This document shows, piece after piece, positions 1 through 34,700 of a stretch of DNA of 64,000 nucleotides. The position numbers and the translations under genes were made by a program. The notes beneath the pieces are model-generated. The model was given only the letters and a program-made list of their open reading frames with translations, did no database searches and was not told the origin of the DNA. This DNA is from the human T2T-CHM13v2.0 reference genome, Homo sapiens. The first letter of the stretch is position 1. Every line of letters starts with the position of its first letter. The stretch lies in NCBI RefSeq assembly GCF_009914755.1, contig NC_060946.1; one strand, given 5' to 3'.

Positions 1-27
1 GTCTGCCGTGGTCTCCATGAGAGTGCG

Positions 28-362
28 CCACATAAGATTCCCCCATTAAAAGTCATGAATTGAGTGGCTTTTAGTATACCTGTGGTTGTGCACATTCAAA
101 TTTAATTCGCAATTCATTGTAGAACGTCTTATCACTCCCGGCCAGAGAAAAACCCTGTAGACATTAGTCACTCCTCATTCTGTCTCAAACCCTCTCCCTG
201 ACCCTCAGCCCTAGGTAGCAACTACCTAGTGCGATCAATCCCATATGCATAGATTATCATATTGTGGACATTTCCTATAAGCGGAATTACACAATAGGTG
301 AGCTGTTATGACTGACATAACACGTAGCACAATATTTTCAAGATTCGTCCACATTGTAGGCT
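28..362 (-). mobile_element. Old L1M (L1MB-like) 3' UTR fragment; repeated in each unit
   Basis: Resembles the antisense L1MB 3' end as recalled: 'agtggcttttagtata', 'cattagtcactcctcattc', 'ggacatttcctataagcggaattacacaata', 'ttttcaagattcgtccacattgtag'. Boundaries approximate. Confidence 0.7.
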
Positions 363-410
363 TACCCACAGGGGGAAACCATTTTATTGGGGGCTTTTAG
401 TAACACCGGT

Positions 411-530
411 GTTTTCTCCTTCCTTACATCCTTCTTTCCATCCTTCCTTCCTTCCTTCCTTCCTGACTTCCTTCTTTCCTTCCCTCCTTCCTCCTATTTC
501 TCTCTTACTCCTTCTGCCCTCTCTCTTTCC
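411..530 (+). repeat. (TTCC)n / pyrimidine-rich simple repeat, variable in length between units
   Basis: Directly visible; longer at ~6720-6770, 38600, 51920 and 58365, shorter at ~13170 and 19600. Confidence 0.9.
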
Positions 531-718
531 TATGCCTTAGGTGCATCCCACATTCTGCGTTTTTTTGGGGGAAATCCTCGACAGGTGCAGGAAAATTGTG
601 TTATTGTAACTATTTACCGTTATCTCTCTTTCACGGCTCTCCATCAGTTGTGAACATCTATTGGTTTATCCCAAGTCACTAAGCATATTTTCATTAGGTA
701 AACCTGTTTTTCCTTATA

Positions 719-850
719 CAGCTGTTTCTGGAGTATAGGGTCGCATACTCATAAACCCAGTGTAACTCAGAAACGCATCTAATATTCCAGTAAACCCATC
801 ATAACGTTGAAAAATCGTAAATCAAACCATCATAAGTCACGGTTTGTCCG
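719..850. mobile_element. MER47/Tigger5-type non-autonomous DNA transposon remnant; repeated in each unit
   Basis: TA followed by CAG..., two 'taaaccca' sub-repeats, and 'gttgaaaaatcgtaaatcaaaccatcataagtc' match the recalled MER47 termini. Confidence 0.6.
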
Positions 851-1239
851 TGGATATGGGCGTCATCAATTCCATTGTATTCAGTAATGCTGTACACCAT
901 TAACAATGGCAGACTGATTGGGAGTGGATATTGATAGCATTATAAAAGTCAGTTATTAGAGGGATACTTCTTTAACCTGACTGAAGAACTGATCTAATGG
1001 CTTTAGTACAGTGCATGATTATGTGCGATGTTTTGAGACAGAGTAGTACATTTGTGAATGAAATTTTATGGCTTTTTTTTCACTTAGTAGGAACCATTGT
1101 GTGTGGAAAAGTGAGAAAATGGCTTTATGCTGTAGGGTCTGGCATTCATTGTAGATGTAAGCTTATTTTTCTGTGAGCAAATCTTATTCAATAAAATACT
1201 ACTCTTTATACTAAAAAACAAAAACAGTGGTGATGTGTG

Positions 1240-1565
1240 GTCATTACCCTCAGCAAACTTATCCAGGGAAAAGAAAACCAAACGCCACAACTCACTTATA
1301 ATGGGAGCTGAAAAATGAGATCCCATGGACACAGGAAGGGGAACAACACACACTGGGGCCTTCCGGGAGACAGAGCGTTAAGAAAAACAGCTACTGCATG
1401 CTGGGCCTAATACCTAGGTGATGGGTTGACAGGTGCAGCAAACCACCATGGCACACGTTAACCTTAGTAACAAATCTGCACATCCTGCACATATACCCCA
1501 GAACTTAGGAACGAAACGAAACAAAAGACAACGAAAAAGCAACAGCAAAACGCTAAAGGCAAAAT
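1240..1565 (+). mobile_element. L1PA (approximately L1PA8-13) 3' end with a decayed poly(A) tail; copies at offsets of about +6301, +12730, +19159, +25447, +31882, +38175, +45198, +51495, +57939
   Basis: 'ctcagcaaact...catggacacaggaaggggaacaacacacactggggcc...taatacctaggtgatgggttgacaggtgcagcaaaccaccatggcacacg...ctgcacatcctgcacat..ccccagaactta' followed by an A-rich tract. Confidence 0.9.
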
Positions 1566-1739
1566 AGAGTTTCAAACTGAGAAAGTGACAGACCAACGTC
1601 TGGTTCAAATCATGGTTCTCAACCCAGGTGCCATAAGGTCGGGATAAAGGATGTGGTTACATATTTTCAATAAGACATGCAGCAAATGACCAGAATGATT
1701 ATTCTCAACATATGTGTGTCTTCTAATTCAATGGTGACG

Positions 1740-2175
1740 CTATCTACCGGGACATAGCATTAGATTCCAAAGGGCCGAGTCCCGCCAGACAGGCCTCCCA
1801 CACTAATAACAATGGGAAGCCCTACGTTGCTTTACCTGTGCTTCTCAGCCACTGGCTATAAATCAGGTTGCCACCACTCCCAGATTTAGTTGCATTCATT
1901 TGCTGGAAGAGCTCACAGCACGCAGGGAAACACTTACATTTGCCGTTGTATTTTAGCGGACATTGCACAAAGTTCAGAAAAAAATGTGGGGCCCGGCATG
2001 TGGGGAGGGGCGCACTACCTTCCAGGAAGTGCTATCCAGAAGCTCTCTGAACCCAGTCCTTTTGGGTTTTGATGGAGACCTCATTCTATAGGCATGATGG
2101 GTTAAACCATAGGCTATTGGTGATCAACTCCACCTGGGGCTCTCCACCCTCCCTGGAAATTGGGGTTGAGGCTTT
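1740..2175 (-). mobile_element. MER21-family LTR fragment; repeated in each unit
   Basis: 'ggctataaat', 'gctcacagcacgcagggaaacacttac', 'gaagctctctgaacccagtccttttgggtttt.atggag', 'taggcatgat' and 'attggtgatcaactc' match the recalled antisense MER21 consensus. Boundaries approximate. Confidence 0.72.
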
Positions 2176-2253
2176 GCCATCCTCAGTCTGACTAAAAGAA
2201 TTTACCCAAACGGAATTTTAAAACAGATGAGCATAACTGGAATCTTAATTAGA

Positions 2254-2264
2254 TGATTGGATTA
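2254..2264 (-). promoter_or_regulatory. DUX4-type double-homeodomain motif TAATCCAATCA, 871 bp upstream of the ATG in every unit
   Basis: TGATTGGATTA on the + strand is TAATCCAATCA on the - strand, matching the TAAYBBAATCA consensus. An adjacent TAATTAGATGA is a partial second site. Confidence 0.55.
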
Positions 2265-2726
2265 TCTGGAGCCACACCTTGATATTCCTAACCCGAGCAC
2301 CCTCATCCAACGAATGCTCCACCCAACTGGCTCCCAAGTCTCTACGTGGTTCCAGAGCAAAAGGATGTTGATACAACGCATATCTCCACCTTTTCTTCAA
2401 AGTCTTTTCGCTTACACGGAAAGACTTCTTCAACTGCCATGCATCAGGGTCAGGGGATTGTCTTGTTATAACACAGATCTGCGGATCTCCGGCGTTTGAC
2501 TGTGGCAAGGATGCTGCTGGTGTCAAAACCACAACGTGGGAACCACAGAACCACTAGTGGGTTTTCAGTGTTTCAGTGCATACAATTCCTAATATATCTG
2601 GCCAAGAAAACTTGTAAGTTCTTAGATTGTCCCAAAGGTGGCGCATGAAATCAAAGCAGGAGAACAGTTTCCTACGAGGTGTAGCCTGGGAAAGTTGGGG
2701 GTGACTGATGGAAAGGAGGAGTGAAG

Positions 2727-2797
2727 CTCCGCCCTTTCCGCTGCTAGGCTGCGCCCGAGGCTATTTAAACCCACCCTGGCTGGCCTGTACTCAGATC
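2727..2797 (+). promoter_or_regulatory. Pol II core promoter: GC box, TATA box and Inr; repeated in each unit
   Basis: CTCCGCCC at 2727-2734, TATTTAAA at 2762-2769 and TCAGATC (YYANWYY) at 2791-2797. The Inr A at 2793 is 31 nt after the TATA start. The region is locally CpG-rich. Confidence 0.65.
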
Positions 2798-2917
2798 TTC
2801 GCGGAGCGGATCAGCGGCCGGAGCGTTTGGCGGACTCTGCGTGGACTTGGAGCTCACAGCGTCTTGCGACTTGGAAGCGGATTCAGAGGACAGGACAGAA
2901 CACTTGGGCAAGTGAAT

Positions 2918-2918
2918 C

Positions 2919-2949
<31 letters not shown>

Positions 2950-3063
2950 CATTGGTTGGTTGATTTCCATTTTCTTAAGGGGCACATACCTCACACCGCA
3001 CACACACAAACACACACACGCACACACACACGCACACGCACACGCACACACACGCACACACAC
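2918..3063 (+). repeat. (TCTG)n at ~2918-2948 and compound (CA)n/(CACG)n at ~2992-3063
   Basis: Directly visible between the promoter and the ATG in every unit. Confidence 0.92.
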
Positions 3064-3124
3064 TCCTTCCTTCTGCGAGTTAGAACATTAGTAGGGGCCC
3101 CTGGGAGCTGCAGGTTTCCTAATC

Positions 3125-6103
3125 ATGTCTGCACCTAAGAACGGTAGGGTCTTGTCTGGCTCTTCTTATGAACGGTCCCCCAGCCCGGACTCCCCAAGGT
3201 CCATGCGAACCTCACCCAGCTTCCCCCTCTCCCCTCTCAGAAACTCAGGCTTAAGGGGAAGCTCCTCACCAGGGATCCGGAGCTACCATTCACCATCCCC
3301 TAGGGCTTCACCACACTCACCTCTGTCATCACCAGAATCCCACAAGCTCCCATTTCCCTGTCCTCACCGTGATGGGCAATCAATGAAGCCATTGGGCTCT
3401 CCCGTGTCCTCCTCTGAGGATTCCTCAGAGTCCCCACGTTCATCAATAATATACCACATGTTCTTACTGCCATCACCCAGCAGCTCACCCCAGGCTCTCG
3501 GGGGGTCTCCCGTGTCTCCCAGCTACTCTCCAAACAACCCCAGATTTCAGCTGCAGTCAGCCCCCCACACCCAGGAATCACCTACAAACTCACGAGCCTC
3601 ACTTTGCTCCACCCCTGCGTCTTTCATCTCTTCACCCCAAGGCCTCAGGGACTCTCCTGTGGCTCCCAGTTACTCTCCAGCCATCCCCAGGTTCCTGCGG
3701 GAGTCAGCCCCATGCGCCCAGGAGTCCCCCAGAGACTCACAGGTCTCGGGAGATTATGAGCGGTCCCCCAGCCCTGACTCCTCAAGATTCATGCCTGCCT
3801 CACCCAGCTTCTCCCTCTCCCCTCCCAGAAACTCAGACCCAAGGGGCAGCTCCTCACCAGGGATGTGGAAGTCCTCTACATCATCCCGCAGGGCTTCACC
3901 ACTCTCACATCCGTCATCAACAGAATTCCACAACTTTACGTTTCCCATTCCTAACCAAGCAGGACAGTCACTCATGTCATTGTGTTCTCCCGTGACCTCC
4001 TCTGGAGATTCTTCACAGTCACCTCATTCATCAATAATATACCATATGTTCTTACTGCCATCATCCAGCAGCTCACCCCCAGCCACCCATGACTCTCCTG
4101 TCTGTCCCAGCTACTCTCCAACTACGCCCAGATTTCAGCGGGAGTCTGTACCCCACACCCCAGAAACACCTACAAACTCACAGACCTCAGTGAGATCCTC
4201 GCCAGTCTCTCTCACGTCTTCACCCCCAGCCCTTACGGACCCTCCAGTCTGTTCCAGCTACTCTCCAACCACGCCCACATTTCAGCGCGGGTCAGTTCCA
4301 GGAACCCAGGGATCACCACCAAGCCCACCGCTTTCACTGAGTTACTCCCCAGTCTCTAGCACGTCTTTATCTCCAACCCTCAGGGACTCGCCTGTCTGTC
4401 CCAGCTACTCTCCAAACACGCCCACACTTCAGCGGGAGTCCGTTGCAGGCACCCAGAAGTCACCACCAAACTCACCAATTTCACTGCGTTATTCCCCAGT
4501 CTCTCTCATGTCTTCACCATCCCTCAGGGACTCTCCCGTCTGTCCCAGCTACTCTCCAACCACGCCCACATTTCAGCTGGAGTCAGTTCCAGGCACCCCG
4601 GAATCACCACCAAACTCACCAATTTCACTCAGTTACTCCCCAGTCTCTAGCACGTCTCTATCTCCAACCCTCAGGGACTCTCCTGTGTGTCCCAGCTACT
4701 CTCCAACCACGCCCACACTTCAGCGGGAGTCAGTTCCAGGCACCCAGGAATCACCACCAAACTCACCAATTTCACTCAATTACTCTCCAGTCTCTCTCGT
4801 GTCTTCACCAGCCCTCAGGGACTCTCCTGTCTGTCCCAGCTACTCTCCAACCACCCCCACATTTCAGCTGGAGTCAGTTCCAGGCACCCCGGAGTCACCA
4901 CCAAACTCAACAGTTTCACTCAGTTACTCCTCGGTCTCTCTCATGTCTTCACCCCCAGCCCTCAGGGACTCTCCTGTGCGTCCCAGCTACTCTCCAACCA
5001 TGCCCAGATTCCAGCGGGAGTCAGTTCCAGGCACCCATGTATCACCACCAAACTCAGCAGTTTCACTGAGTTACTCCCCAGTCTCTCTCATGTCTTCACC
5101 CCCAGACCCCTGGGACTCTCCTGTCTGTCCCAGCTACTCTCCCACCACGCCCAGATTTCAGCGGCAGTCAGCCTCCCACACTCCGGAATCAGATACAGAC
5201 TCACAGACTTCACTGAACTCTTCCCTGGTCTCTCTCAGGTCTTTGCCCTCATCCCACAGGGACTCTTGTGTCTCTTTCAGCTACTCTCAAAACTTCTCTA
5301 GATTCCAGCTGGAGTCAGTTCCAGGCACCCACGATACACCACCGAACTCACGAATTTCACTGACTTACGCCCCAGTCTCCCTCATGTTCTCACCCCCAGC
5401 CCTCAGGGACTCTTCTGGCTCTCTCAGCTACTCTCCAACCATCTCCAGATTTCACCTGGAGTCAGCTTCCCACACCCTGGAATCACCTGCAAATTCACGG
5501 ACCTTACTGCAACCATCCCCCATTTCTTTCACCTCTTCACCCCCTGCCTTCAGGGACTCTCCTGGGTCTCCCAGCTTCTCTCCAGCCTTCCCCAGATTTC
5601 TGCCACAGTCAGCCCCAGGCACCCAGGACAACCCTAGACACTCACAGGCCTCACCAGACTATCTCCCTATGACCTGTACCTATACAGGGATGGCTCCCAC
5701 GCATCCCTCAGTGACCCCAAACCCATCTCCACTTACACTCAGGCACTCCCAGGGCCTGACAGCTACTCCCCGTTATTGTCCTTCAGTTCGAAGCCCTGGC
5801 CAATCTACTAGCCCACATGACGCAGTTACCTGGCCATTTCTCCACGGTTCCCGGGAGGGCCCCACACCCAGCCGCACAAGAGCCCCTCCTGCATTCCGTC
5901 CTCACACGCAGGCCTGTCCATCTACTTGCTACTGTCACACTCTTGCCAGCAGAAGAGGCCCCTGTAATGGCCGATATCACCACCCAGGCTATCCTCACCC
6001 CACAGCTGTGCAGCGGGACCCCCCTGCTGGCCCACGTGGCTGCCACAGCCCATGCTGGCACGACGCTCCAGCAGGTCGGTGTCCCTGCGGACCAAACTAC
6101 TGA
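3125..6103 (+). CDS. Copy 1: Ser/Pro/Thr-rich, RPB1-CTD-like repeat protein, 992 aa (putative)
   Basis: Uninterrupted 2979-nt ORF; ATG has A at -3; TATA/Inr upstream; 16 YSP motifs, 6 of them YSPTTP; ends CGPNY*. Confidence 0.62.
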   Translation: MSAPKNGRVLSGSSYERSPSPDSPRSMRTSPSFPLSPLRNSGLRGSSSPGIRSYHSPSPRASPHSPLSSPESHKLPFPCPHRDGQSMKPLGSPVSSSEDSSESPRSSIIYHMFLLPSPSSSPQALGGSPVSPSYSPNNPRFQLQSAPHTQESPTNSRASLCSTPASFISSPQGLRDSPVAPSYSPAIPRFLRESAPCAQESPRDSQVSGDYERSPSPDSSRFMPASPSFSLSPPRNSDPRGSSSPGMWKSSTSSRRASPLSHPSSTEFHNFTFPIPNQAGQSLMSLCSPVTSSGDSSQSPHSSIIYHMFLLPSSSSSPPATHDSPVCPSYSPTTPRFQRESVPHTPETPTNSQTSVRSSPVSLTSSPPALTDPPVCSSYSPTTPTFQRGSVPGTQGSPPSPPLSLSYSPVSSTSLSPTLRDSPVCPSYSPNTPTLQRESVAGTQKSPPNSPISLRYSPVSLMSSPSLRDSPVCPSYSPTTPTFQLESVPGTPESPPNSPISLSYSPVSSTSLSPTLRDSPVCPSYSPTTPTLQRESVPGTQESPPNSPISLNYSPVSLVSSPALRDSPVCPSYSPTTPTFQLESVPGTPESPPNSTVSLSYSSVSLMSSPPALRDSPVRPSYSPTMPRFQRESVPGTHVSPPNSAVSLSYSPVSLMSSPPDPWDSPVCPSYSPTTPRFQRQSASHTPESDTDSQTSLNSSLVSLRSLPSSHRDSCVSFSYSQNFSRFQLESVPGTHDTPPNSRISLTYAPVSLMFSPPALRDSSGSLSYSPTISRFHLESASHTLESPANSRTLLQPSPISFTSSPPAFRDSPGSPSFSPAFPRFLPQSAPGTQDNPRHSQASPDYLPMTCTYTGMAPTHPSVTPNPSPLTLRHSQGLTATPRYCPSVRSPGQSTSPHDAVTWPFLHGSREGPTPSRTRAPPAFRPHTQACPSTCYCHTLASRRGPCNGRYHHPGYPHPTAVQRDPPAGPRGCHSPCWHDAPAGRCPCGPNY
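4091..5700 (+). repeat. 147-bp satellite monomer array (ACRO1-like) inside the ORF; present in every unit
   Basis: Monomer starts (GAC of the DSPV-type motif) at 4091, 4238, 4385, 4529, 4676, 4820, 4967, 5114, 5261, 5408 and 5555, spaced 147 or 144 bp. Two further monomers lie at ~3503 and 3650. Confidence 0.9.
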
Positions 6104-6332
6104 TGACATGTCTAGCGTGACCCTCCTTCCTGGCAGTGACACTGTTGATGTGAACCCCAATTTCACATCTGTCATTTGTAAATAGGACCATTTTCCCTTT
6201 TCGCTCTCCCTTCCATTCACAGGGCTTTTCATTCTCTCTGTTACTGCCTCCGTTTCAGATATTTACTCACCTTTTTCTCTCTCACTATGTCTGCCGTGGT
6301 CTCCATGAGAGTGCGCCACATAAGATTCCCCC

Positions 6333-6338
6333 ATTAAA
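6333..6338 (+). terminator. Candidate polyadenylation signal ATTAAA, ~230 nt after the stop codon (equivalent site at 45-50)
   Basis: First A(A/T)TAAA hexamer downstream of the ORF, followed by GT/T-rich sequence (gagtggcttttag...tgtggttgtg). Confidence 0.45.
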
Positions 6339-9219
6339 AGTCATGAATTGAGTGGCTTTTAGTATACCTGTGGTTGTGCACATTCAAATTTAATTCGCAA
6401 TTCATTGTAGAACGTCTTATCACTCCCGACCAGAGAAAAACCCTGTAGACATTAGTCACTCCTCATTCTGTCTCAAACCCTCTCCCTGACCCGCAGCCCT
6501 AGGTAGCAACTACCTAGTGCGATCAATCCCATATGCATAGATTACCATATTGTGGACATTTCCTATAAGCGGAATTGCACAATAGGGGAGCTGTTATGAC
6601 TGACATAACACGTAGCACAATATTTTCAAGATTCGTACACATTGTAGGCTTACCCACAGGGGGAAACCATTTTTTTGGGGGCTTTTAGTAACACCGGTGT
6701 TTTCTCCTTCCTTACGTCGTTCTTTCCTTCCTTCCTTCCTTCCTTCCTTCCTTCCTTCCTTCCTTCCTGACTTCCTTCTTTCCTTCCCTCCTTTCTCCTA
6801 TTTCTCTCTTACTCCTTCTGCCCTCTCTCTTTCCTATGCCTTAGGTGCATCCCACATTCTGCATTTTTTGGGGAAATCCTCGACAGGTGCAGGAAAATTG
6901 TGTTATTGTAACTATTTACCGTTATCTCTCTTTCACGGCTCTCCATCAGTTGTGAACATCTATTGGTTTATCCCAAGTCACTAAGCATATTTTCATTAGG
7001 TAAACCTGTTTTTCCTTATACAGCTGTTTCTGGAGTATAGGGTCGCATACTCATAAACCCAGTGTAACTCAGAAACGCATCTAATATTCCAGTAAACCCA
7101 TCATAACGTTGAAAAATCGTAAATCAAACCATCATAAGTCACGGTTTGTCCGTGGATATGGGCGTCATCAATTCCATTGTATTCAGTAATGCTGTACACC
7201 ATTAACAATGGCAGACTGATTGGGAGTGGATATTGATAGCATTATAAAAGTCAGTTATTAGAGGGATACTTCTTTAACCTGACTGAAGAACTGATCTAAT
7301 GGCTTTAGTACAGTGCATGATTATGTGCGATGTTTTGAGACAGAGTAGTACATTTGTGAATGAAATTTTATGGCTTTTTTTTCACTTAGTAGGAACCATT
7401 GTGTGTGGAAAAGTGAGAAAATGGCTTTCTGCTGTAGGGTCTGGCATTCATTGTAGATGTAAGCTTATTTTTCTGTGAGCAAATCTTATTCAATAAAATA
7501 CTACTCTTTATACTAAAAAACAAAAACAGTGGTGATGTGTGGTCATTATCCTCAACAAACTTATCCAGGGAAAGAAAACCAAACGCCACAACTCACTTAT
7601 AATGGGAGCTGAAAAATGAGATCCCATGGACACAGGAAGGGGAACAACACACACTGGGGCCTTCCGGGAGACAGAGCGTTAAGAAAAACAGCTACTGCAT
7701 GCTGGGCTTAATACCTAGGTGATGGGTTGACAGGTGCAGCAAACCACCATGGCACACGTTTACCTTAGTAACAAATCTGCACATCCTGCACATATACCCC
7801 AGAACTTAGGAACGAAATGAAACAAAAGACAACGAAAAAGCAACAGCAAAACGCTAAAGGCAAAATAAAGTTTCAAACTGAGAAAGTGACAGACCAACGT
7901 CTGGTTCAAATCATGGTTCTCAACCCAGGTGCCATAAGGTCGGGATAAAGGATGTGATTACATATTGTCAATAAGACATGCAGCAAATGACCAGAATGAT
8001 TATTCTCAACATATATGTGTCTTCTAATTCAATGGTGACGCTATGTACCGGGACATAGCATTAGATTCCAAAGGGCCGAGTCCCGCCAGACAGGCCTCCC
8101 ACACTAATAACAATGGGAAGCCCTACGTTGCTTTACCTGTGCTTCTCAGCCACTGGCTATAAATCAGGTTGCCACCACTCCCAGATTTAGTTGCATTCAT
8201 TTGCTGGAAGAGCTCACAGCACGCAGGGAAACACTTACATTTGCCGTTGTATTTTAGCGGACATTGCACAAAGTTCAGAAAAAAATGTGGGGCCCGGCAT
8301 ATGGGGAGGGGCGCACTACCTTCCAGGAAGTGCTATCCAGAAGCTCTCTGAACCCAGTCCTTTTGGGTTTTGATGGAGACCTCATTCTATAGGCATGATG
8401 GGTTAAACCATAGGCTATTGGTGATCAACTCCACCTGGGGCTCTCCACCCTCCCTGGAAATTGGGGTTGAGGCTTTGCCATCCTCAGTCTGACTAAAAGA
8501 ATTTACCCAAACGGAATTTTAAAACAGATGAGCATAACTGGAATCTTAATTAGATGATTGGATTATCTGGAGCCACACCTTGATATTCCTAACCCGAGCA
8601 CCCTCATCCAACGAATGCTCCACCCAACTGGCTCCCAAGTCTCTACGTGGTTCCAGAGCAAAAGGATGTTGATACAACGCATATCTCCACCTTTTCTTCA
8701 AAGTCTTTTCGCTTACACGGAAAGACTTCTTCAACTGCCATGCATCAGGGTCAGGGGGAGGTCTTGTTACAACCCAGATCTGCGGATCTCCGGCGTTTGA
8801 CTGTGGCAAGGATGCTGCTGGTGTCAAAACCACAACGTGGGAACCACAGAACCACTAGTGGGTTTTCAGTGTTTCAGTGCATACAATTCCTAATATATCT
8901 GGCCAAGAAAACTTGTAAGTTCTTAGATTGTCCCAAAGGTGGCGCATGAAATCAAAGCAGGAGAACAGTTTCCTACGAGGTGTAGCCTGGGAAAGTTGGG
9001 GGTGACTGATGGAAAGGAGGAGTGAAGCTCCGCCCTTTCCGCTGCTAGGCTGCGCCCGAGGCTATTTAAACCCACCCTGGCTGGCCTGTACTCAGATCTT
9101 CGCGGAGCGGATCAGCGGCCGGAGCGTTTGGCGGACTCTGCGTGGACTTGGAGCTCACAGCGTCTTGCGACTTGGAAGCGGATTCAGAGGACAGGACAGA
9201 ACACTTGGGCAAGTGAATC

Positions 9220-12554: not shown

Positions 12555-15500
12555 CATGTCTAGCGTGACCCTCCTTCCTGGCAGTGACACTGTTGATGTG
12601 AACCCCAATTTCACATCTGTCATTTGTAAATAGGACCATTTTCCCTTTTCGCTCTCCCTTCCATTCACAGGGCTTTTCATTCTCTCTGTTACTGCCTCCG
12701 TTTCAGATATTTACTCACCTTTTTCTCTCTCACTATGTCTGCCGTGGTCTCCATGAGAGTGCGCCACATAAGATTCCCCCATTAAAAGTCATGAATTGAG
12801 TGGCTTTTAGTATACCTGTGGTTGTGCACATTCAAATTTAATTCGCAATTCATTGTAGAACGTCTTATCACTCCCGGCCAGAGAAAAACCCTGTAGACAT
12901 TAGTCACTCCTCATTCTGTCTCAAACCCTCTCCCTGACCCGCAGCCCTAGGTAGCAACTACCTAGTGCGATCAATCCCATATGCATAGATTACCATATTG
13001 TGGACATTTCCTATAAGCGGAATTACACAATAGGTGAGCTGTTATGACTGACATAACACGTAGCACAATATTTTCAAGATTCGTCCACATTGTAGGCTTA
13101 CCCACAGGGGGAAACCATTTTATTGGGGGCTTTTAGTAACACCGGTGTTTTCTCCTTCCTTACGTCCTTCTTTCCTTCCTTCCTTCCTTCCTTCCTGACT
13201 TCCTTCTTTCCTTCCCTCCTTCCTCCTATTTCTCTCTAACTCCTTCTGCCCTCTCTCTTTCCTATGCCTTAGGTGCATCCCACATTCTGCGTTTTTTTGG
13301 GGAAATCCTCGACAGGTGCAGGAAAATTGTGTTATTGTAACTATTTACCGTTATCTCTCTTTCACGGCTCTCCATCAGTTGTGAACATCTATTGGTTTAT
13401 CCCAAGTCACTAAGCATATTTTCATTAGGTAAACCTGTTTTTCCTTATACAGCTGTTTCTGGAGTATAGGGTCGCATACTCATAAACCCAGTGTAACTCA
13501 GAAACGCATCTAATATTCCAGTAAACCCATCATAACGTTGAAAAATCGTAAATCAAACCATCATAAGTCACGGTTTGTCCGTGGATATGGGCGTCATCAA
13601 TTCCATTGTATTCAGTAATGCTGTACACCATTAACAATGGCAGACTGATTGGGAGTGGATATTGATAGCATTATAAAAGTCAGTTATTAGAGGGATACTT
13701 CTTTAACCTGACTGAAGAACTGATCTAATGGCTTTAGTACAGTGCATGATTATGTGCGATGTTTTGAGACAGAGTAGTACATCTGTGAATGAAATTTTAT
13801 GGCTTTTTTTTCACTTAGTAGGAACCATTGTGTGTGGAAAAGTGAGAAAATGGCTTTATGCTGTAGGGTCTGGCATTCATTGTAGATGTAAGCTGATTTT
13901 TCTGTGAGCAAATCTTATTCAATAAAATACTACTCTTTATACTAAAAAACAAAAACAGTGGTGATGTGTGGTCATTATCCTCAGCAAACTTATCCGGGGA
14001 AAGAAAACCAAACGCCACAACTCACTTATAATGGGAGCTGAAAAATGAGATCCCATGGACACAGGAAGGGGAAGAACACACACTGAGGCCTTCCGGGAGA
14101 CAGAGCGTTAAGAAAAACAGCTACTGCATGCTGGGCCTAATACCTAGGTGATGGGTTGACAGGTGCAGCAAACCACCATGGCACACGTTTACCTTAGTAA
14201 CAAATCTGCACATCCTGCACATATACCCCAGAACTTAGGAACGAAACGAAACAAAAGACAACGAAAAAACAATAGCAAAACGCTAAAGGCAAAATAAAGT
14301 TTCAAACTGAGAAAGTGACAGACCAACGTCTGGTTCAAATCATGGTTCTCAACCCAGGTGCCATAAGGTCGGGATAAAGGATGTGATTACATATTGTCAA
14401 TAAGACATGCAGCAAATGACCAGAATGATTATTCTCAACATATGTGTGTCTTCTAATTCAATGGTGACGCTATCTACCGGGACATAGCATTAGATTCCAA
14501 AGGGCCGAGTCCCGCCAGACAGGCCTCCCACACTAATAACAATGGGAAGCCCTACGTTGCTTTACCTGTGCTTCTCAGCCACTGGCTATAAATCAGGTTG
14601 CCACCACTCCCAGATTTAGTTGCATTCATTTGCTGGAAGAGCTCACAGCACGCAGGGAAACACTTACATCTGCCGTTGTATTTTAGCGGACATTGCACAA
14701 AGTTCAGAAATAAATGTGGGGCCCGGCACGTGGGGAGGGGCGCACTACCTTCCAGGAAGTGTTATCCGGAAGCTCTCTGAACCCAGTCCTTTTGGGTTTT
14801 GATGGAGACCTCATTCTATAGGCATGATGGGTTAAACCATAGGCTATTGGTGATCAACTCCACCTGGGGCTCTCCACCCTCCCTGGAAATTGGGGTTGAG
14901 GTTTTGCCATTCTCAGTCTGACTAAAAGAATTTACCCAAACGGAATTTTAAAACAGATGAGCATAACTGGAATCTTAATTAGATGATTGGATTATCTGGA
15001 GCCACACCTTGATATTCCTAACCCGAGCACCCTCATCCAACGAATGCTCCACCCAACTGGCTCCCAAGTCTCTACGTGGTTCCAGAGCAAAAGGATGTTG
15101 ATACAACGCATATCTCCACCTTTTCTTCAAAGTCTTTTCGCTTACACGGAAAGACTTCTTCAACTGCCATGCATCAGGGTCAGGGGGAGGTCTTGTTACA
15201 ACCCAGATCTGCGGATCTCCGGCGTTTGACTGTGGCAAGGATGCTGCTGGTGTCAAAACCACAACGTGGGAACCACAGAACCACTAGTGGGTTTTCAGTG
15301 TTTCAGTGCATACAATTCCTAATATTTCTGGCCAAGAAAACTTGTAAGTTCTTAGATTGTCCCAAAGGTGGCGCATGAAATCAAAGCAGGAGAACAGTTT
15401 CCTACGAGGTGTAGCCTGGGAAAGTTGGGGGTGACTGATGGAAAGGAGGAGTGAAGCTCCGCCCTTTCCGCTGCTAGGCTGCGCCCGAGGCTATTTAAAC

Positions 15501-18983: not shown

Positions 18984-21900
18984 CATGTCTAGCGTGACCC
19001 TCCTTCCTGGCAGTGACACTGTTGATGTGAACCCCAATTTCACATCTGTCATTTGTAAATAGGACCATTTTCCCTTTTCGCTCTCCCTTCCATTCACAGG
19101 GCTTTTCATTCTCTCTGTTACTGCCTCCGTTTCAGATATTTACTCACCTTTTTCTCTCTCACTATGTCTGCCGTGGTCTCCATGAGAGTGCGCCACATAA
19201 GATTCCCCCATTAAAAGTCATGAATTGAGTGGCTTTTAGTATACCTGTGGTTGTGCACATTCAAATTTAATTCGCAATTCATTGTAGAACGTCTTATCAC
19301 TCCCGGCCAGAGAAAAACCCTGTAGACATTAGTCACTCCTCATTCTGTCTCAAACCCTCTCCCTGACCCGCAGCCCTAGGTAGCAACTACCTAGTGCGAT
19401 CAATCCCATATGCATAGATTACCATATTGTGGACATTTCCTATAAGCGGAATTACACAATAGGTGAGCTGTTATGACTGACATAACACGTAGCACAATAT
19501 TTTCAAGATTCGTCCACATTGTAGGCTTACCCACAGGGGGAAACCATTTTATTGGGGGCTTTTAGTAACACCGGTGTTTTCTCCTTCCTTACGTCCTTCT
19601 TTCCTTCCTTCCTTCCTTCCTTCCTGACTTCCTTCTTTCCTTCCCTCCTTCCTCCTATTTCTCTCTAACTCCTTCTGCCCTCTCTCTTTCCTATGCCTTA
19701 GGTGCATCCCACATTCTGCGTTTTTTTGGGGAAATCCTCGACAGGTGCAGGAAAATTGTGTTATTGTAACTATTTACCGTTATCTCTCTTTCACGGCTCT
19801 CCATCAGTTGTGAACATCTATTGGTTTATCCCAAGTCACTAAGCATATTTTCATTAGGTAAACCTGTTTTTCCTTATACAGCTGTTTCTGGAGTATAGGG
19901 TCGCATACTCATAAACCCAGTGTAACTCAGAAACGCATCTAATATTCCAGTAAACCCATCATAACGTTGAAAAATCGTAAATCAAACCATCATAAGTCAC
20001 GGTTTGTCCGTGGATATGGGCGTCATCAATTCCATTGTATTCAGTAATGCTGTACACCATTAACAATGGCAGACTGATTGGGAGTGGATATTGATAGCAT
20101 TATAAAAGTCAGTTATTAGAGGGATACTTCTTTAACCTGACTGAAGAACTGATCTAATGGCTTTAGTACAGTGCATGATTATGTGCGATGTTTTGAGACA
20201 GAGTAGTACATCTGTGAATGAAATTTTATGGCTTTTTTTTCACTTAGTAGGAACCATTGTGTGTGGAAAAGTGAGAAAATGGCTTTATGCTGTAGGGTCT
20301 GGCATTCATTGTAGATGTAAGCTGATTTTTCTGTGAGCAAATCTTATTCAATAAAATACTACTCTTTATACTAAAAAACAAAAACAGTGGTGATGTGTGG
20401 TCATTATCCTCAGCAAACTTATCCGGGGAAAGAAAACCAAACGCCACAACTCACTTATAATGGGAGCTGAAAAATGAGATCCCATGGACACAGGAAGGGG
20501 AAGAACACACACTGAGGCCTTCCGGGAGACAGAGCGTTAAGAAAAACAGCTACTGCATGCTGGGCCTAATACCTAGGTGATGGGTTGACAGGTGCAGCAA
20601 ACCACCATGGCACACGTTTACCTTAGTAACAAATCTGCACATCCTGCACATATACCCCAGAACTTAGGAACGAAACGAAACAAAAGACAACGAAAAAACA
20701 ATAGCAAAACGCTAAAGGCAAAATAAAGTTTCAAACTGAGAAAGTGACAGACCAACGTCTGGTTCAAATCATGGTTCTCAACCCAGGTGCCATAAGGTCG
20801 GGATAAAGGATGTGATTACATATTGTCAATAAGACATGCAGCAAATGACCAGAATGATTATTCTCAACATATGTGTGTCTTCTAATTCAATGGTGACGCT
20901 ATCTACCGGGACATAGCATTAGATTCCAAAGGGCCGAGTCCCGCCAGACAGGCCTCCCACACTAATAACAATGGGAAGCCCTACGTTGCTTTACCTGTGC
21001 TTCTCAGCCACTGGCTATAAATCAGGTTGCCACCACTCCCAGATTTAGTTGCATTCATTTGCTGGAAGAGCTCACAGCACGCAGGGAAACACTTACATCT
21101 GCCGTTGTATTTTAGCGGACATTGCACAAAGTTCAGAAATAAATGTGGGGCCCGGCACGTGGGGAGGGGCGCACTACCTTCCAGGAAGTGTTATCCGGAA
21201 GCTCTCTGAACCCAGTCCTTTTGGGTTTTGATGGAGACCTCATTCTATAGGCATGATGGGTTAAACCATAGGCTATTGGTGATCAACTCCACCTGGGGCT
21301 CTCCACCCTCCCTGGAAATTGGGGTTGAGGTTTTGCCATTCTCAGTCTGACTAAAAGAATTTACCCAAACGGAATTTTAAAACAGATGAGCATAACTGGA
21401 ATCTTAATTAGATGATTGGATTATCTGGAGCCACACCTTGATATTCCTAACCCGAGCACCCTCATCCAACGAATGCTCCACCCAACTGGCTCCCAAGTCT
21501 CTACGTGGTTCCAGAGCAAAAGGATGTTGATACAACGCATATCTCCACCTTTTCTTCAAAGTCTTTTCGCTTACACGGAAAGACTTCTTCAACTGCCATG
21601 CATCAGGGTCAGGGGGAGGTCTTGTTACAACCCAGATCTGCGGATCTCCGGCGTTTGACTGTGGCAAGGATGCTGCTGGTGTCAAAACCACAACGTGGGA
21701 ACCACAGAACCACTAGTGGGTTTTCAGTGTTTCAGTGCATACAATTCCTAATATTTCTGGCCAAGAAAACTTGTAAGTTCTTAGATTGTCCCAAAGGTGG
21801 CGCATGAAATCAAAGCAGGAGAACAGTTTCCTACGAGGTGTAGCCTGGGAAAGTTGGGGGTGACTGATGGAAAGGAGGAGTGAAGCTCCGCCCTTTCCGC

Positions 21901-25265: not shown

Positions 25266-28200
25266 CATGTCTAGCGTGACCCTCCTTCCTGGCAGTGACA
25301 CTGTTGATGTGAACCCCAATTTCACATCTGTCATTTGTAAATAGGACCATTTTCCCTTTTCGCTCTCCCTTCCATTCACAGGGCTTTTCATTCTCTCTGT
25401 TACTGCCTCCGTTTCAGATATTTACTCACCTTTTTCTCTCTCACTATGTCTGCCGTGGTCTCCATGAGAGTGCGCCACATAAGATTCCCCCATTAAAAGT
25501 CATGAATTGAGTGGCTTTTAGTATACCTGTGGTTGTGCACATTCAAATTTAATTCGCAATTCATTGTAGAACGTCTTATCACTCCCGGCCAGAGAAAAAC
25601 CCTGTAGACATTAGTCACTCCTCATTCTGTCTCAAACCCTCTCCCTGACCCTCAGCCCTAGGTAGCAACTACCTAGTGCGATCAATCCCATATGCATAGA
25701 TTATCATATTGTGGACATTTCCTATAAGCGGAATTACACAATAGGTGAGCTGTTATGACTGACATAACACGTAGCACAATATTTTCAAGATTCGTCCACA
25801 TTGTAGGCTTACCCACAGGGGGAAACCATTTTATTGGGGGCTTTTAGTAACACCGGTGTTTTCTCCTTCCTTACATCCTTCTTTCCATCCTTCCTTCCTT
25901 CCTTCCTTCCTGACTTCCTTCTTTCCTTCCCTCCTTCCTCCTATTTCTCTCTTACTCCTTCTGCCCTCTCTCTTTCCTATGCCTTAGGTGCATCCCACAT
26001 TCTGCGTTTTTTTGGGGGAAATCCTCGACAGGTGCAGGAAAATTGTGTTATTGTAACTATTTACCGTTATCTCTCTTTCACGGCTCTCCATCAGTTGTGA
26101 ACATCTATTGGTTTATCCCAAGTCACTAAGCATATTTTCATTAGGTAAACCTGTTTTTCCTTATACAGCTGTTTCTGGAGTATAGGGTCGCATACTCATA
26201 AACCCAGTGTAACTCAGAAACGCATCTAATATTCCAGTAAACCCATCATAACGTTGAAAAATCGTAAATCAAACCATCATAAGTCACGGTTTGTCCGTGG
26301 ATATGGGCGTCATCAATTCCATTGTATTCAGTAATGCTGTACACCATTAACAATGGCAGACTGATTGGGAGTGGATATTGATAGCATTATAAAAGTCAGT
26401 TATTAGAGGGATACTTCTTTAACCTGACTGAAGAACTGATCTAATGGCTTTAGTACAGTGCATGATTATGTGCGATGTTTTGAGACAGAGTAGTACATTT
26501 GTGAATGAAATTTTATGGCTTTTTTTTCACTTAGTAGGAACCATTGTGTGTGGAAAAGTGAGAAAATGGCTTTATGCTGTAGGGTCTGGCATTCATTGTA
26601 GATGTAAGCTTATTTATCTGTGAGCAAATCTTATTCAATAAAATACTACTCTTTATACTAAAAAACAAAAACAGTGGTGATGTGTGGTCATTACCCTCAG
26701 CAAACTTATCCAGGGAAAAGAAAACCAAACGCCACAACTCACTTATAATGGGAGCTGAAAAATGAGATCCCATGGACACAGGAAGGGGAACAACACACAC
26801 TGGGGCCTTCCGGGAGACAGAGCGTTAAGAAAAACAGCTACTGCATGCTGGGCCTAATACCTAGGTGATGGGTTGACAGGTGCAGCAAACCACCATGGCA
26901 CACGTTAACCTTAGTAACAAATCTGCACATCCTGCACATATACCCCAGAACTTAGGAACGAAACGAAACAAAAGACAACGAAAAAGCAACAGCAAAACGC
27001 AAAAGGCAAAATAGAGTTTCAAACTGAGAAAGTGACAGACCAACGTCTGGTTCAAATCATGGTTCTCAACCCAGGTGCCATAAGGTCGGGATAAAGGATG
27101 TGGTTACATATTTTCAATAAGACATGCAGCAAATGACCAGAATGATTATTCTCAACATATGTGTGTCTTCTAATTCAATGGTGACGCTATCTACCGGGAC
27201 ATAGCATTAGATTCCAAAGGGCCGAGTCCCGCCAGACAGGCCTCCCACACTAATAACAATGGGAAGCCCTACGTTGCTTTACCTGTGCTTCTCAGCCACT
27301 GGCTATAAATCAGGTTGCCACCACTCCCAGATTTAGTTGCATTCATTTGCTGGAAGAGCTCACAGCACGCAGGGAAACACTTACATTTGCCGTTGTATTT
27401 TAGCGGACATTGCACAAAGTTCAGAAAAAAATGTGGGGCCCGGCATGTGGGGAGGGGCGCACTACCTTCCAGGAAGTGCTATCCAGAAGCTCTCTGAACC
27501 CAGTCCTTTTGGGTTTTGATGGAGACCTCATTCTATAGGCATGATGGGTTAAACCATAGGCTATTGGTGATCAACTCCACCTGGGGCTCTCCACCCTCCC
27601 TGGAAATTGGGGTTGAGGCTTTGCCATCCTCAGTCTGACTAAAAGAATTTACCCAAACGGAATTTTAAAACAGATGAGCATAACTGGAATCTTAATTAGA
27701 TGATTGGATTATCTGGAGCCACACCTTGATATTCCTAACCCGAGCACCCTCATCCAACGAATGCTCCACCCAACTGGCTCCCAAGTCTCTACGTGGTTCC
27801 AGAGCAAAAGGATGTTGATACAACGCATATCTCCACCTTTTCTTCAAAGTCTTTTCGCTTACACGGAAAGACTTCTTCAACTGCCATGCATCAGGGTCAG
27901 GGGGAGGTCTTGTTACAACACAGATCTGCGGATCTCCGGCGTTTGACTGTGGCAAGGATGCTGCTGGTGTCAAAACCACAACGTGGGAACCACAGAACCA
28001 CTAGTGGGTTTTCAGTGTTTCAGTGCATACAATTCCTAATATATCTGGCCAAGAAAACTTGTAAGTTCTTAGATTGTCCCAAAGGTGGCGCATGAAATCA
28101 AAGCAGGAGAACAGTTTCCTACGAGGTGTAGCCTGGGAAAGTTGGGGGTGACTGATGGAAAGGAGGAGTGAAGCTCCGCCCTTTCCGCTGCTAGGCTGCG

Positions 28201-31700: not shown

Positions 31701-34700
31701 CATGTCTAGCGTGACCCTCCTTCCTGGCAGTGACACTGTTGATGTGAACCCCAATTTCACATCTGTCATTTGTAAATAGGACCATTTTCCCTTTTCGCTC
31801 TCCCTTCCATTCACAGGGCTTTTCATTCTCTCTGTTACTGCCTCCGTTTCAGATATTTACTCACCTTTTTCTCTCTCACTATGTCTGCCGTGGTCTCCAT
31901 GAGAGTGCGCCACATAAGATTCCCCCATTAAAAGTCATGAATTGAGTGGCTTTTAGTATACCTGTGGTTGTGCACATTCAAATTTAATTCGCAATTCATT
32001 GTAGAACGTCTTATCACTCCCGGCCAGAGAAAAACCCTGTAGACATTAGTCACTCCTCATTCTGTCTCAAACCCTCTCCCTGACCCTCAGCCCTAGGTAG
32101 CAACTACCTAGTGCGATCAATCCCATATGCATAGATTATCATATTGTGGACATTTCCTATAAGCGGAATTACACAATAGGTGAGCTGTTATGACTGACAT
32201 AACACGTAGCACAATATTTTCAAGATTCGTCCACATTGTAGGCTTACCCACAGGGGGAAACCATTTTATTGGGGGCTTTTAGTAACACCGGTGTTTTCTC
32301 CTTCCTTACATCCTTCTTTCCATCCTTCCTTCCTTCCTTCCTTCCTGACTTCCTTCTTTCCTTCCCTCCTTCCTCCTATTTCTCTCTTACTCCTTCTGCC
32401 CTCTCTCTTTCCTATGCCTTAGGTGCATCCCACATTCTGCGTTTTTTTGGGGGAAATCCTCGACAGGTGCAGGAAAATTGTGTTATTGTAACTATTTACC
32501 GTTATCTCTCTTTCACGGCTCTCCATCAGTTGTGAACATCTATTGGTTTATCCCAAGTCACTAAGCATATTTTCATTAGGTAAACCTGTTTTTCCTTATA
32601 CAGCTGTTTCTGGAGTATAGGGTCGCATACTCATAAACCCAGTGTAACTCAGAAACGCATCTAATATTCCAGTAAACCCATCATAACGTTGAAAAATCGT
32701 AAATCAAACCATCATAAGTCACGGTTTGTCCGTGGATATGGGCGTCATCAATTCCATTGTATTCAGTAATGCTGTACACCATTAACAATGGCAGACTGAT
32801 TGGGAGTGGATATTGATAGCATTATAAAAGTCAGTTATTAGAGGGATACTTCTTTAACCTGACTGAAGAACTGATCTAATGGCTTTAGTACAGTGCATGA
32901 TTATGTGCGATGTTTTGAGACAGAGTAGTACATTTGTGAATGAAATTTTATGGCTTTTTTTTCACTTAGTAGGAACCATTGTGTGTGGAAAAGTGAGAAA
33001 ATGGCTTTATGCTGTAGGGTCTGGCATTCATTGTAGATGTAAGCTTATTTTTCTGTGAGCAAATCTTATTCAATAAAATACTACTCTTTATACTAAAAAA
33101 CAAAAACAGTGGTGATGTGTGGTCATTACCCTCAGCAAACTTATCCAGGGAAAAGAAAACCAAACGCCACAACTCACTTATAATGGGAGCTGAAAAATGA
33201 GATCCCATGGACACAGGAAGGGGAACAACACACACTGGGGCCTTCCGGGAGACAGAGCGTTAAGAAAAACAGCTACTGCATGCTGGGCCTAATACCTAGG
33301 TGATGGGTTGACAGGTGCAGCAAACCACCATGGCACACGTTAACCTTAGTAACAAATCTGCACATCCTGCACATATACCCCAGAACTTAGGAACGAAACG
33401 AAACAAAAGACAACGAAAAAGCAACAGCAAAACGCTAAAGGCAAAATAGAGTTTCAAACTGAGAAAGTGACAGACCAACGTCTGGTTCAAATCATGGTTC
33501 TCAACCCAGGTGCCATAAGGTCGGGATAAAGGATGTGGTTACATATTTTCAATAAGACATGCAGCAAATGACCAGAATGATTATTCTCAACATATGTGTG
33601 TCTTCTAATTCAATGGTGACGCTATCTACCGGGACATAGCATTAGATTCCAAAGGGCCGAGTCCCGCCAGACAGGCCTCCCACACTAATAACAATGGGAA
33701 GCCCTACGTTGCTTTACCTGTGCTTCTCAGCCACTGGCTATAAATCAGGTTGCCACCACTCCCAGATTTAGTTGCATTCATTTGCTGGAAGAGCTCACAG
33801 CACGCAGGGAAACACTTACATTTGCCGTTGTATTTTAGCGGACATTGCACAAAGTTCAGAAAAAAATGTGGGGCCCGGCATGTGGGGAGGGGCGCACTAC
33901 CTTCCAGGAAGTGCTATCCAGAAGCTCTCTGAACCCAGTCCTTTTGGGTTTTGATGGAGACCTCATTCTATAGGCATGATGGGTTAAACCATAGGCTATT
34001 GGTGATCAACTCCACCTGGGGCTCTCCACCCTCCCTGGAAATTGGGGTTGAGGCTTTGCCATCCTCAGTCTGACTAAAAGAATTTACCCAAACGGAATTT
34101 TAAAACAGATGAGCATAACTGGAATCTTAATTAGATGATTGGATTATCTGGAGCCACACCTTGATATTCCTAACCCGAGCACCCTCATCCAACGAATGCT
34201 CCACCCAACTGGCTCCCAAGTCTCTACGTGGTTCCAGAGCAAAAGGATGTTGATACAACGCATATCTCCACCTTTTCTTCAAAGTCTTTTCGCTTACACG
34301 GAAAGACTTCTTCAACTGCCATGCATCAGGGTCAGGGGATTGTCTTGTTATAACACAGATCTGCGGATCTCCGGCGTTTGACTGTGGCAAGGATGCTGCT
34401 GGTGTCAAAACCACAACGTGGGAACCACAGAACCACTAGTGGGTTTTCAGTGTTTCAGTGCATACAATTCCTAATATATCTGGCCAAGAAAACTTGTAAG
34501 TTCTTAGATTGTCCCAAAGGTGGCGCATGAAATCAAAGCAGGAGAACAGTTTCCTACGAGGTGTAGCCTGGGAAAGTTGGGGGTGACTGATGGAAAGGAG
34601 GAGTGAAGCTCCGCCCTTTCCGCTGCTAGGCTGCGCCCGAGGCTATTTAAACCCACCCTGGCTGGCCTGTACTCAGATCTTCGCGGAGCGGATCAGCGGC

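What the first reader, a model, noticed from the sequence alone, without database searches (positions are those of the whole stretch)
2241..2270. Consensus DUX4 site ~530 bp upstream of the predicted TSS in all ten units
Seen: an invariant TAATCCAATCA on the minus strand (2254, 8555 and the other copies) plus an adjacent TAATTA half-site, just beyond the MER21 fragment. Established: DUX4 binds TAAYBBAATCA and activates cleavage-stage, often multi-copy genes (ZSCAN4, PRAMEF, TRIM43, MBD3L) and some satellites and LTRs. Inference: the array may be a zygotic-genome-activation or FSHD-induced locus that yields a burst of CTD-like protein. One 11-mer in 6 kb could also arise by chance.
Basis: partly seen in the sequence, partly recalled or inferred. 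Interest (0 to 1): 0.72.

Follow-up and report, generated by a model that had tools for sequence, protein, structure and literature searches.

The report
DUX4 site heading ACRO macrosatellite units
Each 6.3-kb unit of this human ACRO repeat array carries a perfect binding site for the early-embryo activator DUX4, the same site lies under published DUX4 binding peaks in sister copies on other chromosomes, and it likely explains why DUX4 switches on ACRO1 RNA, which is predicted to encode a 1,000-residue protein resembling the tail of RNA polymerase II.

Summary
The motif is real: TAATCCAATCA, minus strand, in 10 of 10 units. Invariance proves nothing, because units are 99-100% identical and 84% of upstream 11-mers are invariant. 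The window is the known ACRO composite (ACRO1 macrosatellite). DUX4 induction of ACRO1 RNA and its likeness to the Pol II CTD are both published. What this check adds is the cis link. The site lies about 1.8 kb upstream of the ACRO1 satellite, in spacer DNA about 530 bp before a predicted promoter and a ~1,000-codon ORF. In a published DUX4 ChIP-seq table (Young 2013) the equivalent site is the best motif of a peak at 3 of 3 chr2 copies and 2 of 5 intact chr4 copies, while ACRO1 itself has 0 peaks but 15.8x RNA induction. All 8 old dispersed copies keep a consensus site; one has a second. Against: about half of perfect sites are bound anyway, constraint is not significant (13% of windows are as conserved), 27 copies lost the site, the peaks show no significant local RNA activation, the TAATTA half-site type is inactive in published assays, and no protein is shown. 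Verdict: likely direct DUX4 target; protein burst untested.

The parts
2254..2264 (-). DUX4 consensus site TAATCCAATCA (CC flavour), unit 1; also holds the unit's only TAATCC hexamer
   Evidence: paralogous site under published DUX4 peaks
8555..8565 (-). DUX4 site, unit 2
14984..14994 (-). DUX4 site, unit 3
21413..21423 (-). DUX4 site, unit 4
27701..27711 (-). DUX4 site, unit 5
34136..34146 (-). DUX4 site, unit 6
40429..40439 (-). DUX4 site, unit 7
47452..47462 (-). DUX4 site, unit 8
53749..53759 (-). DUX4 site, unit 9
60193..60203 (-). DUX4 site, unit 10
2246..2251 (.). TAATTA palindrome; probably not a DUX4 element
   Evidence: this element type inactive in reporters; changed in 6 of 16 other copies aligned
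2289..2299 (+). Degenerate second site (two mismatches); a perfect DUX4 site in one chr19 copy
2729..2797 (+). Predicted core promoter: GC box 2729, TATTTAAA 2762, initiator 2791-2797; CpG observed/expected 0.80 over 2700-2910
   Evidence: prediction only
3125..6103 (+). 992-codon Ser/Pro/Thr-rich ORF with CTD-like YSPT repeats, first ATG after the predicted start; marmoset homologue of 832 aa
4073..5628 (+). 147-bp tandem array (ACRO1-type satellite, 10.6 copies) inside the ORF
   Evidence: period and arrangement as described
6333..6338 (+). ATTAAA, candidate polyadenylation signal 230 bp after the stop
   Evidence: prediction only
1..6288 (+). One ACRO composite unit; ten head-to-tail units of 6.3-7.0 kb fill the window

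Best explanation
The 11-mer is a DUX4 binding site in the spacer of the ACRO composite repeat that likely drives the known DUX4-dependent, cleavage-stage burst of ACRO1 RNA from a predicted promoter 530 bp downstream. Shown by sequence: one perfect site per unit, upstream of a promoter-like stretch and a ~1,000-codon ORF. Shown by published data re-mapped here: DUX4, when over-expressed in myoblasts, occupies the equivalent site in five paralogues and not the ACRO1 satellite itself, while ACRO1 RNA rises 15.8-fold. Inferred: DUX4 opens the site (p300/CBP recruitment, established for DUX4 in general), polymerase II starts near 2793 and reads sense through the satellite, in many of roughly 190 site-bearing units at once. 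Not shown: binding at these chr22 copies, the start site, dependence of the RNA on this motif, translation.
For: Perfect match to an active flavour. Peaks: hg19 chr2 best motifs 133,041,212 and 133,047,117 are 5,905 bp apart, exactly as the two T2T copies' motifs; hg19 chr2:162,137,203 maps onto the T2T 161,739,000 copy with offset 398,203, between offsets 398,261-398,266 and 398,184 at 4 of 4 flanking peaks checked; chr4 peaks 12,434 bp apart match two window-type motifs 12,435 bp apart. ACRO1: 61 annotated copies, 0 peaks, ChIP 1.1x, RNA 15.8x. 8 of 8 old dispersed copies (86-95% identical) keep a consensus site, differing only at a tolerated pyrimidine; one has a second perfect site. ACRO1 RNA peaks at the 4-cell stage. 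174 exact copies of the 20-mer genome-wide, control 0.
Against: About 17 of 31 perfect chr1 sites checked are also peaks, so occupancy is ordinary for a perfect site. The five peaks show no significant local RNA activation (two 'Not expressed', adjusted p 0.62, 0.87, 0.97). Constraint is not significant: 97 of 746 windows (13%) are equally invariant among old copies. 25 units on chr15/chr21 and 2 chr4 copies have lost the site, and the 25 expanded anyway. One site alone is a weak activator; two were about 20-fold stronger. ACRO1 is absent from the held supplements of a nanopore DUX4 study. ACRO1 RNA blocks its own elongation in reporters.
Confidence: 0.62

Rival explanations
1. Bound bystander: DUX4 occupies the site as it does about half of all perfect sites, but ACRO1 RNA rises indirectly, through loss of heterochromatin or methylation, downstream factors or read-through.
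For: About 17 of 31 control sites bound; no significant local activation at 5 of 5 peaks; constraint not significant; ACRO1 strongly hypomethylated in FSHD-mutant cells; a site-less subfamily expanded to 25 units.
Against: The unit's only perfect site sits 530 bp from a promoter-like stretch, a 0.54%-per-kb event; 8 of 8 old copies keep it and one has a second; the local RNA test is tied to the peak interval, which lies upstream of the predicted transcript, and to mappable reads.
Confidence: 0.22
2. Only a few dispersed or pericentromeric copies respond; the distal chr22 array in this window stays silent and its sites are passengers of concerted amplification.
For: All occupancy evidence comes from chr2 and chr4 positions of hg19; no gene or functional element is annotated in the window (hub note); units are homogenised to 99-100%.
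Against: The chr4 peaks are at window-type (CC) copies about 95% identical to the window, and the acrocentric arrays were missing from earlier references, so those reads may come from them; 9 of 10 window units keep the long frame open.
Confidence: 0.12
3. In the expanded acrocentric subfamily the site works mainly through K50 paired-like factors such as LEUTX, because the T-to-C change created TAATCC.
For: TAATCC occurs once per unit, inside this site; old copies read TAATTC; LEUTX is a TAATCC-targeting activator (abstract of PMC6258689 in the listing).
Against: A hexamer is weak evidence; the same change is the base DUX4 prefers at position 5; the young copies show a mild excess of A/T-to-G/C changes that could explain it neutrally (49:36 against 36:48, p=0.065).
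Confidence: 0.04

Closest known systems
ACRO composite / ACRE macrosatellite containing ACRO1 (Boots 2020 PMC7714431; Hoyt preprint 10.1101/2021.07.12.451456; bioRxiv 10.64898/2025.12.22.696095)
   Same: 147-bp array within a ~6-kb unit, homogenised arrays on distal acrocentric arms, CTD-like translation, 4-cell expression.
   Different: In the passages I saw it is treated as a non-coding satellite; none describes the upstream DUX4 site, the promoter anatomy or the full ~1,000-codon ORF.
DUX4-induced ACRO1 transcripts (Hendrickson 2017 as cited in PMC8990217, PMC11467316, PMC12776069; Young 2013 PMC3836709 Table S2)
   Same: Same repeat, same activator.
   Different: Reported as induction of a satellite with no peak on ACRO1; here the bound site is located 1.8 kb upstream in spacer DNA labelled 'Unique'.
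Multi-copy DUX4 target genes (ZSCAN4, PRAMEF, TRIM43/49, MBD3L; multi-copy organisation recalled, not from a call)
   Same: Consensus site upstream of a coding frame, tandem amplification, cleavage-stage timing.
   Different: Copy number about 190-220, single site per unit, no RefSeq gene in the window, no protein evidence, dN/dS about 1-1.5 among human copies.
DUX4-activated HSATII
   Same: Satellite whose RNA is induced by DUX4.
   Different: HSATII is itself bound and induced about 860-fold; ACRO1 is not bound within the satellite and rises 15.8-fold.

Membership tests
DUX4 binding site | Exact TAAT[T/C][T/C]AATCA with correct spacing | tested here: met
   consensus
DUX4 binding site | Occupancy by DUX4 in ChIP-seq at the equivalent site of paralogues | tested here: met
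   3 of 3 chr2 copies, 2 of 5 intact chr4 copies, 0 of 2 broken chr4 copies in the range searched; mappability confounds the absences
DUX4 binding site | Occupancy at the chr22 copies in this window | not testable with these tools
   needs raw reads on T2T; held table is hg19 and cut at 49,232 rows
DUX4 binding site | Evolutionary constraint above background | tested here: inconclusive
   0 changes at 9 fixed positions in 8 old copies, but 13% of windows do as well; two independent losses
DUX4 binding site | Second cooperating site (TAATTA half-site claimed) | tested here: not met
   no second site within one mismatch near the motif; half-sites and TAATTA inactive
ACRO composite macrosatellite | 147-bp satellite array within a ~6-kb unit | tested here: met
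ACRO composite macrosatellite | Homogenised arrays on acrocentric short arms plus chr3, chr4 and dispersed copies | tested here: met
   described
ACRO composite macrosatellite | MER21B, L1PA10 and L1MB8 subunits | not testable with these tools
   no repeat library; names
Direct DUX4 target protein-coding gene | RNA induced by DUX4 | tested here: inconclusive
   15.8x at family level; not significant at 5 of 5 bound copies
Direct DUX4 target protein-coding gene | Long ORF behind a promoter, kept across species | tested here: met
   9 of 10 window units open; 12 of 20 sampled units of at least 860 aa; collinear 832-aa marmoset protein
Direct DUX4 target protein-coding gene | Purifying selection on the protein | tested here: not met
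   omega 1.07 (transitions) and 1.55 (transversions) over distinct variants in 20 human copies
Direct DUX4 target protein-coding gene | Protein detected (ribosome profiling, mass spectrometry) | not testable with these tools
   no such data available here

The most novel reading that the evidence does not exclude
The ACRO 'satellite' is an unannotated, primate-specific, ~200-copy protein-coding gene family, kept open since the marmoset split, fired directly by DUX4 at genome activation and in FSHD muscle, that releases a disordered Pol II CTD mimic able to titrate CTD kinases, phosphatases or readers; arrays with and without the DUX4 site set the dose per person.
Probability: 0.25. Interest if true: 0.88.

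Novelty: new member of a known kind. Interest (0 to 1): 0.58.

Why it matters
A recent ape-genome preprint calls ACRO the repeat most specific to acrocentric arms and notes its 4-cell expression as little analysed. A located, occupied DUX4 site gives a direct mechanism and a built-in control: 25 units on chr15/chr21 lack the site. About 190 sites, roughly 1% of all perfect DUX4 sites in the genome, sit in these units and were largely invisible to hg19/hg38 mapping. If the ORF is translated, a CTD-like protein would join the embryo activation and FSHD programmes, with copy number as a possible modifier.

Tried and rejected
Invariance across ten units as evidence of function: rejected. TAATTA as a cooperating DUX4 half-site: rejected. 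Constraint on the motif: not significant. Purifying selection on the ORF: not found. The 127-aa ORF at 2708 starts upstream of the predicted start site and was set aside. Peaks at the chr19 copies: no rows found, but the held table is cut at 49,232 rows, the latest chromosome seen in it was chr13, and my hg19 search terms came from recalled offsets, so this is uninformative. A chr4 peak at hg19 49,316,533 (0 motifs) does not match a unit motif and was left out of the count. MER21 boundary by alignment to a 300-bp MER21A stretch: no hit. Hendrickson 2017 and the journal version of Hoyt 2022 were not held. Two long-read DUX4 papers do not mention ACRO1 in main text or, for one, in its two held supplements. 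The ORFs of the site-less chr15/chr21 subfamily and of most old copies were not examined.

Full report
Observation. TAATCCAATCA lies on the minus strand of 10 of 10 units, and these are the only TAAYBBAATCA matches in the window. The units are 6.3-7.0 kb and 98.9-100% identical over their first 3.2 kb; 2,600 of 3,109 11-mers there are invariant. The ten copies are therefore one event. The genome holds 16,955 perfect TAATYYAATCA sites, 5.4 per Mb, so one event has a chance of 3.4% per unit or 0.54% per kb. A GC box at 2729, TATTTAAA at 2762 and an initiator match with A at 2793 place the motif 529-539 bp upstream of a predicted start. The first ATG after it is 3125, which opens 992 codons; ATTAAA follows at 6333. 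The start site is a prediction.

Identity. Each unit holds a 147-bp tandem array within a ~6-kb repeat. This fits the ACRO composite: Boots 2020 (PMC7714431, parts 2 and 3 of 5 read) describes it and already notes that ACRO1 translates into a Pol II CTD-like peptide; an ape acrocentric preprint (passages) lists ACRO1, L1PA10, MER21B and L1MB8 as subunits; the Hoyt preprint (one passage) finds it on 12 chromosomes. The 20-mer around the site has 174 exact copies (control 0); the first 100 listed lie on chr3, 4, 13, 14, 15 and 21. A 17-mer allowing all four flavours has 207 matches, of which about 13 of the first 100 are outside ACRO loci, so roughly 190 units carry a site.

What is known. Three papers (passages) state that DUX4 induces ACRO1 transcripts; two cite Hendrickson 2017 by name, which was not held. 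ACRO1 RNA peaks at the 4-cell stage (PMC6545021, passages). Zhang 2016 (PMC4730607, parts 2 and 3 of 5) shows that all four TAAT[T/C][T/C]AATCA flavours are active and compete equally, CT being the strongest; half-sites and a TAATTA-containing element are inactive; two sites are about 20-fold stronger than one.

Occupancy. Young 2013 (PMC3836709; passages; Table S1 parts 1, 61, 67 and searches; one row set of Table S2) gives DUX4 peaks in hg19. Two peaks on chr2 have best motifs 5,905 bp apart, the exact spacing of the motifs of two T2T ACRO copies. A third, at chr2:162,137,203, maps onto the copy at T2T 161,739,000: its offset of 398,203 lies between 398,261-398,266 and 398,184 measured at 4 of 4 flanking peaks I fetched. 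On chr4, peaks 12,434 bp apart match two window-type motifs 12,435 bp apart; 3 other intact copies and 2 broken copies in the range searched (hg19 49.27-49.33 Mb) have no peak, one intact copy fell outside that range, and one motif-less peak was left out. All five are labelled 'Unique'. Table S2 gives ACRO1 61 copies, 0 peaks, 1.1x ChIP enrichment and 15.8x RNA activation. An upstream site outside the annotated satellite reconciles induction without binding. Limits: this is over-expression in myoblasts; about 17 of 31 perfect chr1 sites checked by coordinate offset are also peaks (11 by tightly paired offsets, 6 plausible), so 3 of 3 has a chance of 0.16; none of the five peaks shows significant local RNA activation; reads at chr4 may come from unassembled arrays.

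Evolution of the site. I aligned 16 copies to the window over 2130-2970. All 8 old dispersed copies (chr2 x3, chr19 x3, chr20 x2; 86-95% identical) read TAATTCAATCA; the large arrays read TAATCCAATCA. The change is at the tolerated position 5, towards the base DUX4 prefers, and creates the unit's only TAATCC, the LEUTX-type hexamer. One chr19 copy has a second perfect site 35 bp away, three substitutions from the window's sequence. But 97 of 746 windows (13%) are as invariant among old copies, so constraint is not established. The site is broken in 25 units on chr15 and chr21 and in 2 chr4 copies, each time by a two-base change that makes a CpG; a mild A/T-to-G/C excess in young copies (p=0.065) could account for this. 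The 20 loci were chosen for having the motif and the 4 for lacking the exact 20-mer, so neither set gives a rate.

The ORF. The long frame is open in 9 of 10 window units (eight complete at 992-1,238 aa, one running off the window, one stopping at 288) and reaches at least 860 aa in 12 of 20 sampled units elsewhere. Both site-less chr4 copies stop early (27 and 209 codons), against 3 of 20 site-bearing units stopping before 350; this is a hint only. One protein search (residues 1-330, 7,984 candidates scored) gave 4 hits, one a marmoset protein of 832 aa, 71% identical, auto-named after RPB1 and collinear at both ends. An open frame in both lineages suggests retention (inference), but human copies show omega 1.07 and 1.55, no purifying selection. 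ACRO1 RNA impairs its own elongation in reporters, and ACRO1 does not appear in two long-read DUX4 papers (main-text searches; two supplements). No protein evidence exists here.

Mechanism. Most likely (0.62) DUX4 binds this site at genome activation or in FSHD muscle and switches on the unit's promoter, giving sense RNA through the ACRO1 array from many units. Binding at paralogues and family-level induction are shown in published tables; the causal link, the start site, activity of the chr22 copies and translation are inferred. Rivals: bound bystander with indirect induction (0.22), silent distal arrays (0.12), LEUTX-type control (0.04).

Novelty. Induction and CTD likeness are known. I found no description of the upstream site or the gene-like unit in searches, but Hendrickson 2017, the cut part of Table S1 and preprint supplements were not seen and may bear on this. 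I rate it a new member of a known kind (a direct DUX4 target in a tandem array), interest 0.58; 0.88 if the CTD-like protein is made (probability 0.25).

Noticed in passing
G000 chr15:90,969-155,070 and chr21:106,382-210,311 (L062, L063): A subfamily of 25 longer units (6.7-8.9 kb spacing) in which the DUX4 site is broken by a two-base change creating a CpG; a natural control array.
   Followed up: partly
L061 (chr19:47,231,615-47,232,405): An old copy with two perfect DUX4 sites 35 bp apart; the second differs by three substitutions from the window's 2289-2299.
   Followed up: partly
window 41300-45016 and 35007-35873: Unit 7 has an in-frame internal duplication (1,238 aa); unit 6 has a frameshift (288 aa, then a 770-aa downstream ORF).
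   Followed up: no
window 3125-4072 against L031-L050: Variants among human ORF copies show more transversions than transitions (143 against 114 over both segments) and few synonymous transversions (p=0.055); unexplained.
   Followed up: no
window 2912-3113: Possible short intron in the 5' leader (weak GT donor, CA-rich body, pyrimidine tract and AG just before the ATG), seen by eye.
   Followed up: no
hub gene table, LOC124908428 (-73185..-47071): This predicted coding model ends inside an ACRO unit of the same array (unit match at chr22:74,975), so RefSeq may have partly modelled an ACRO transcript.
   Followed up: no
P0004: The marmoset homologue carries the name 'DNA-directed RNA polymerase II subunit RPB1' though it is the ACRO ORF; such names may hide this family in primate annotations.
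   Followed up: partly
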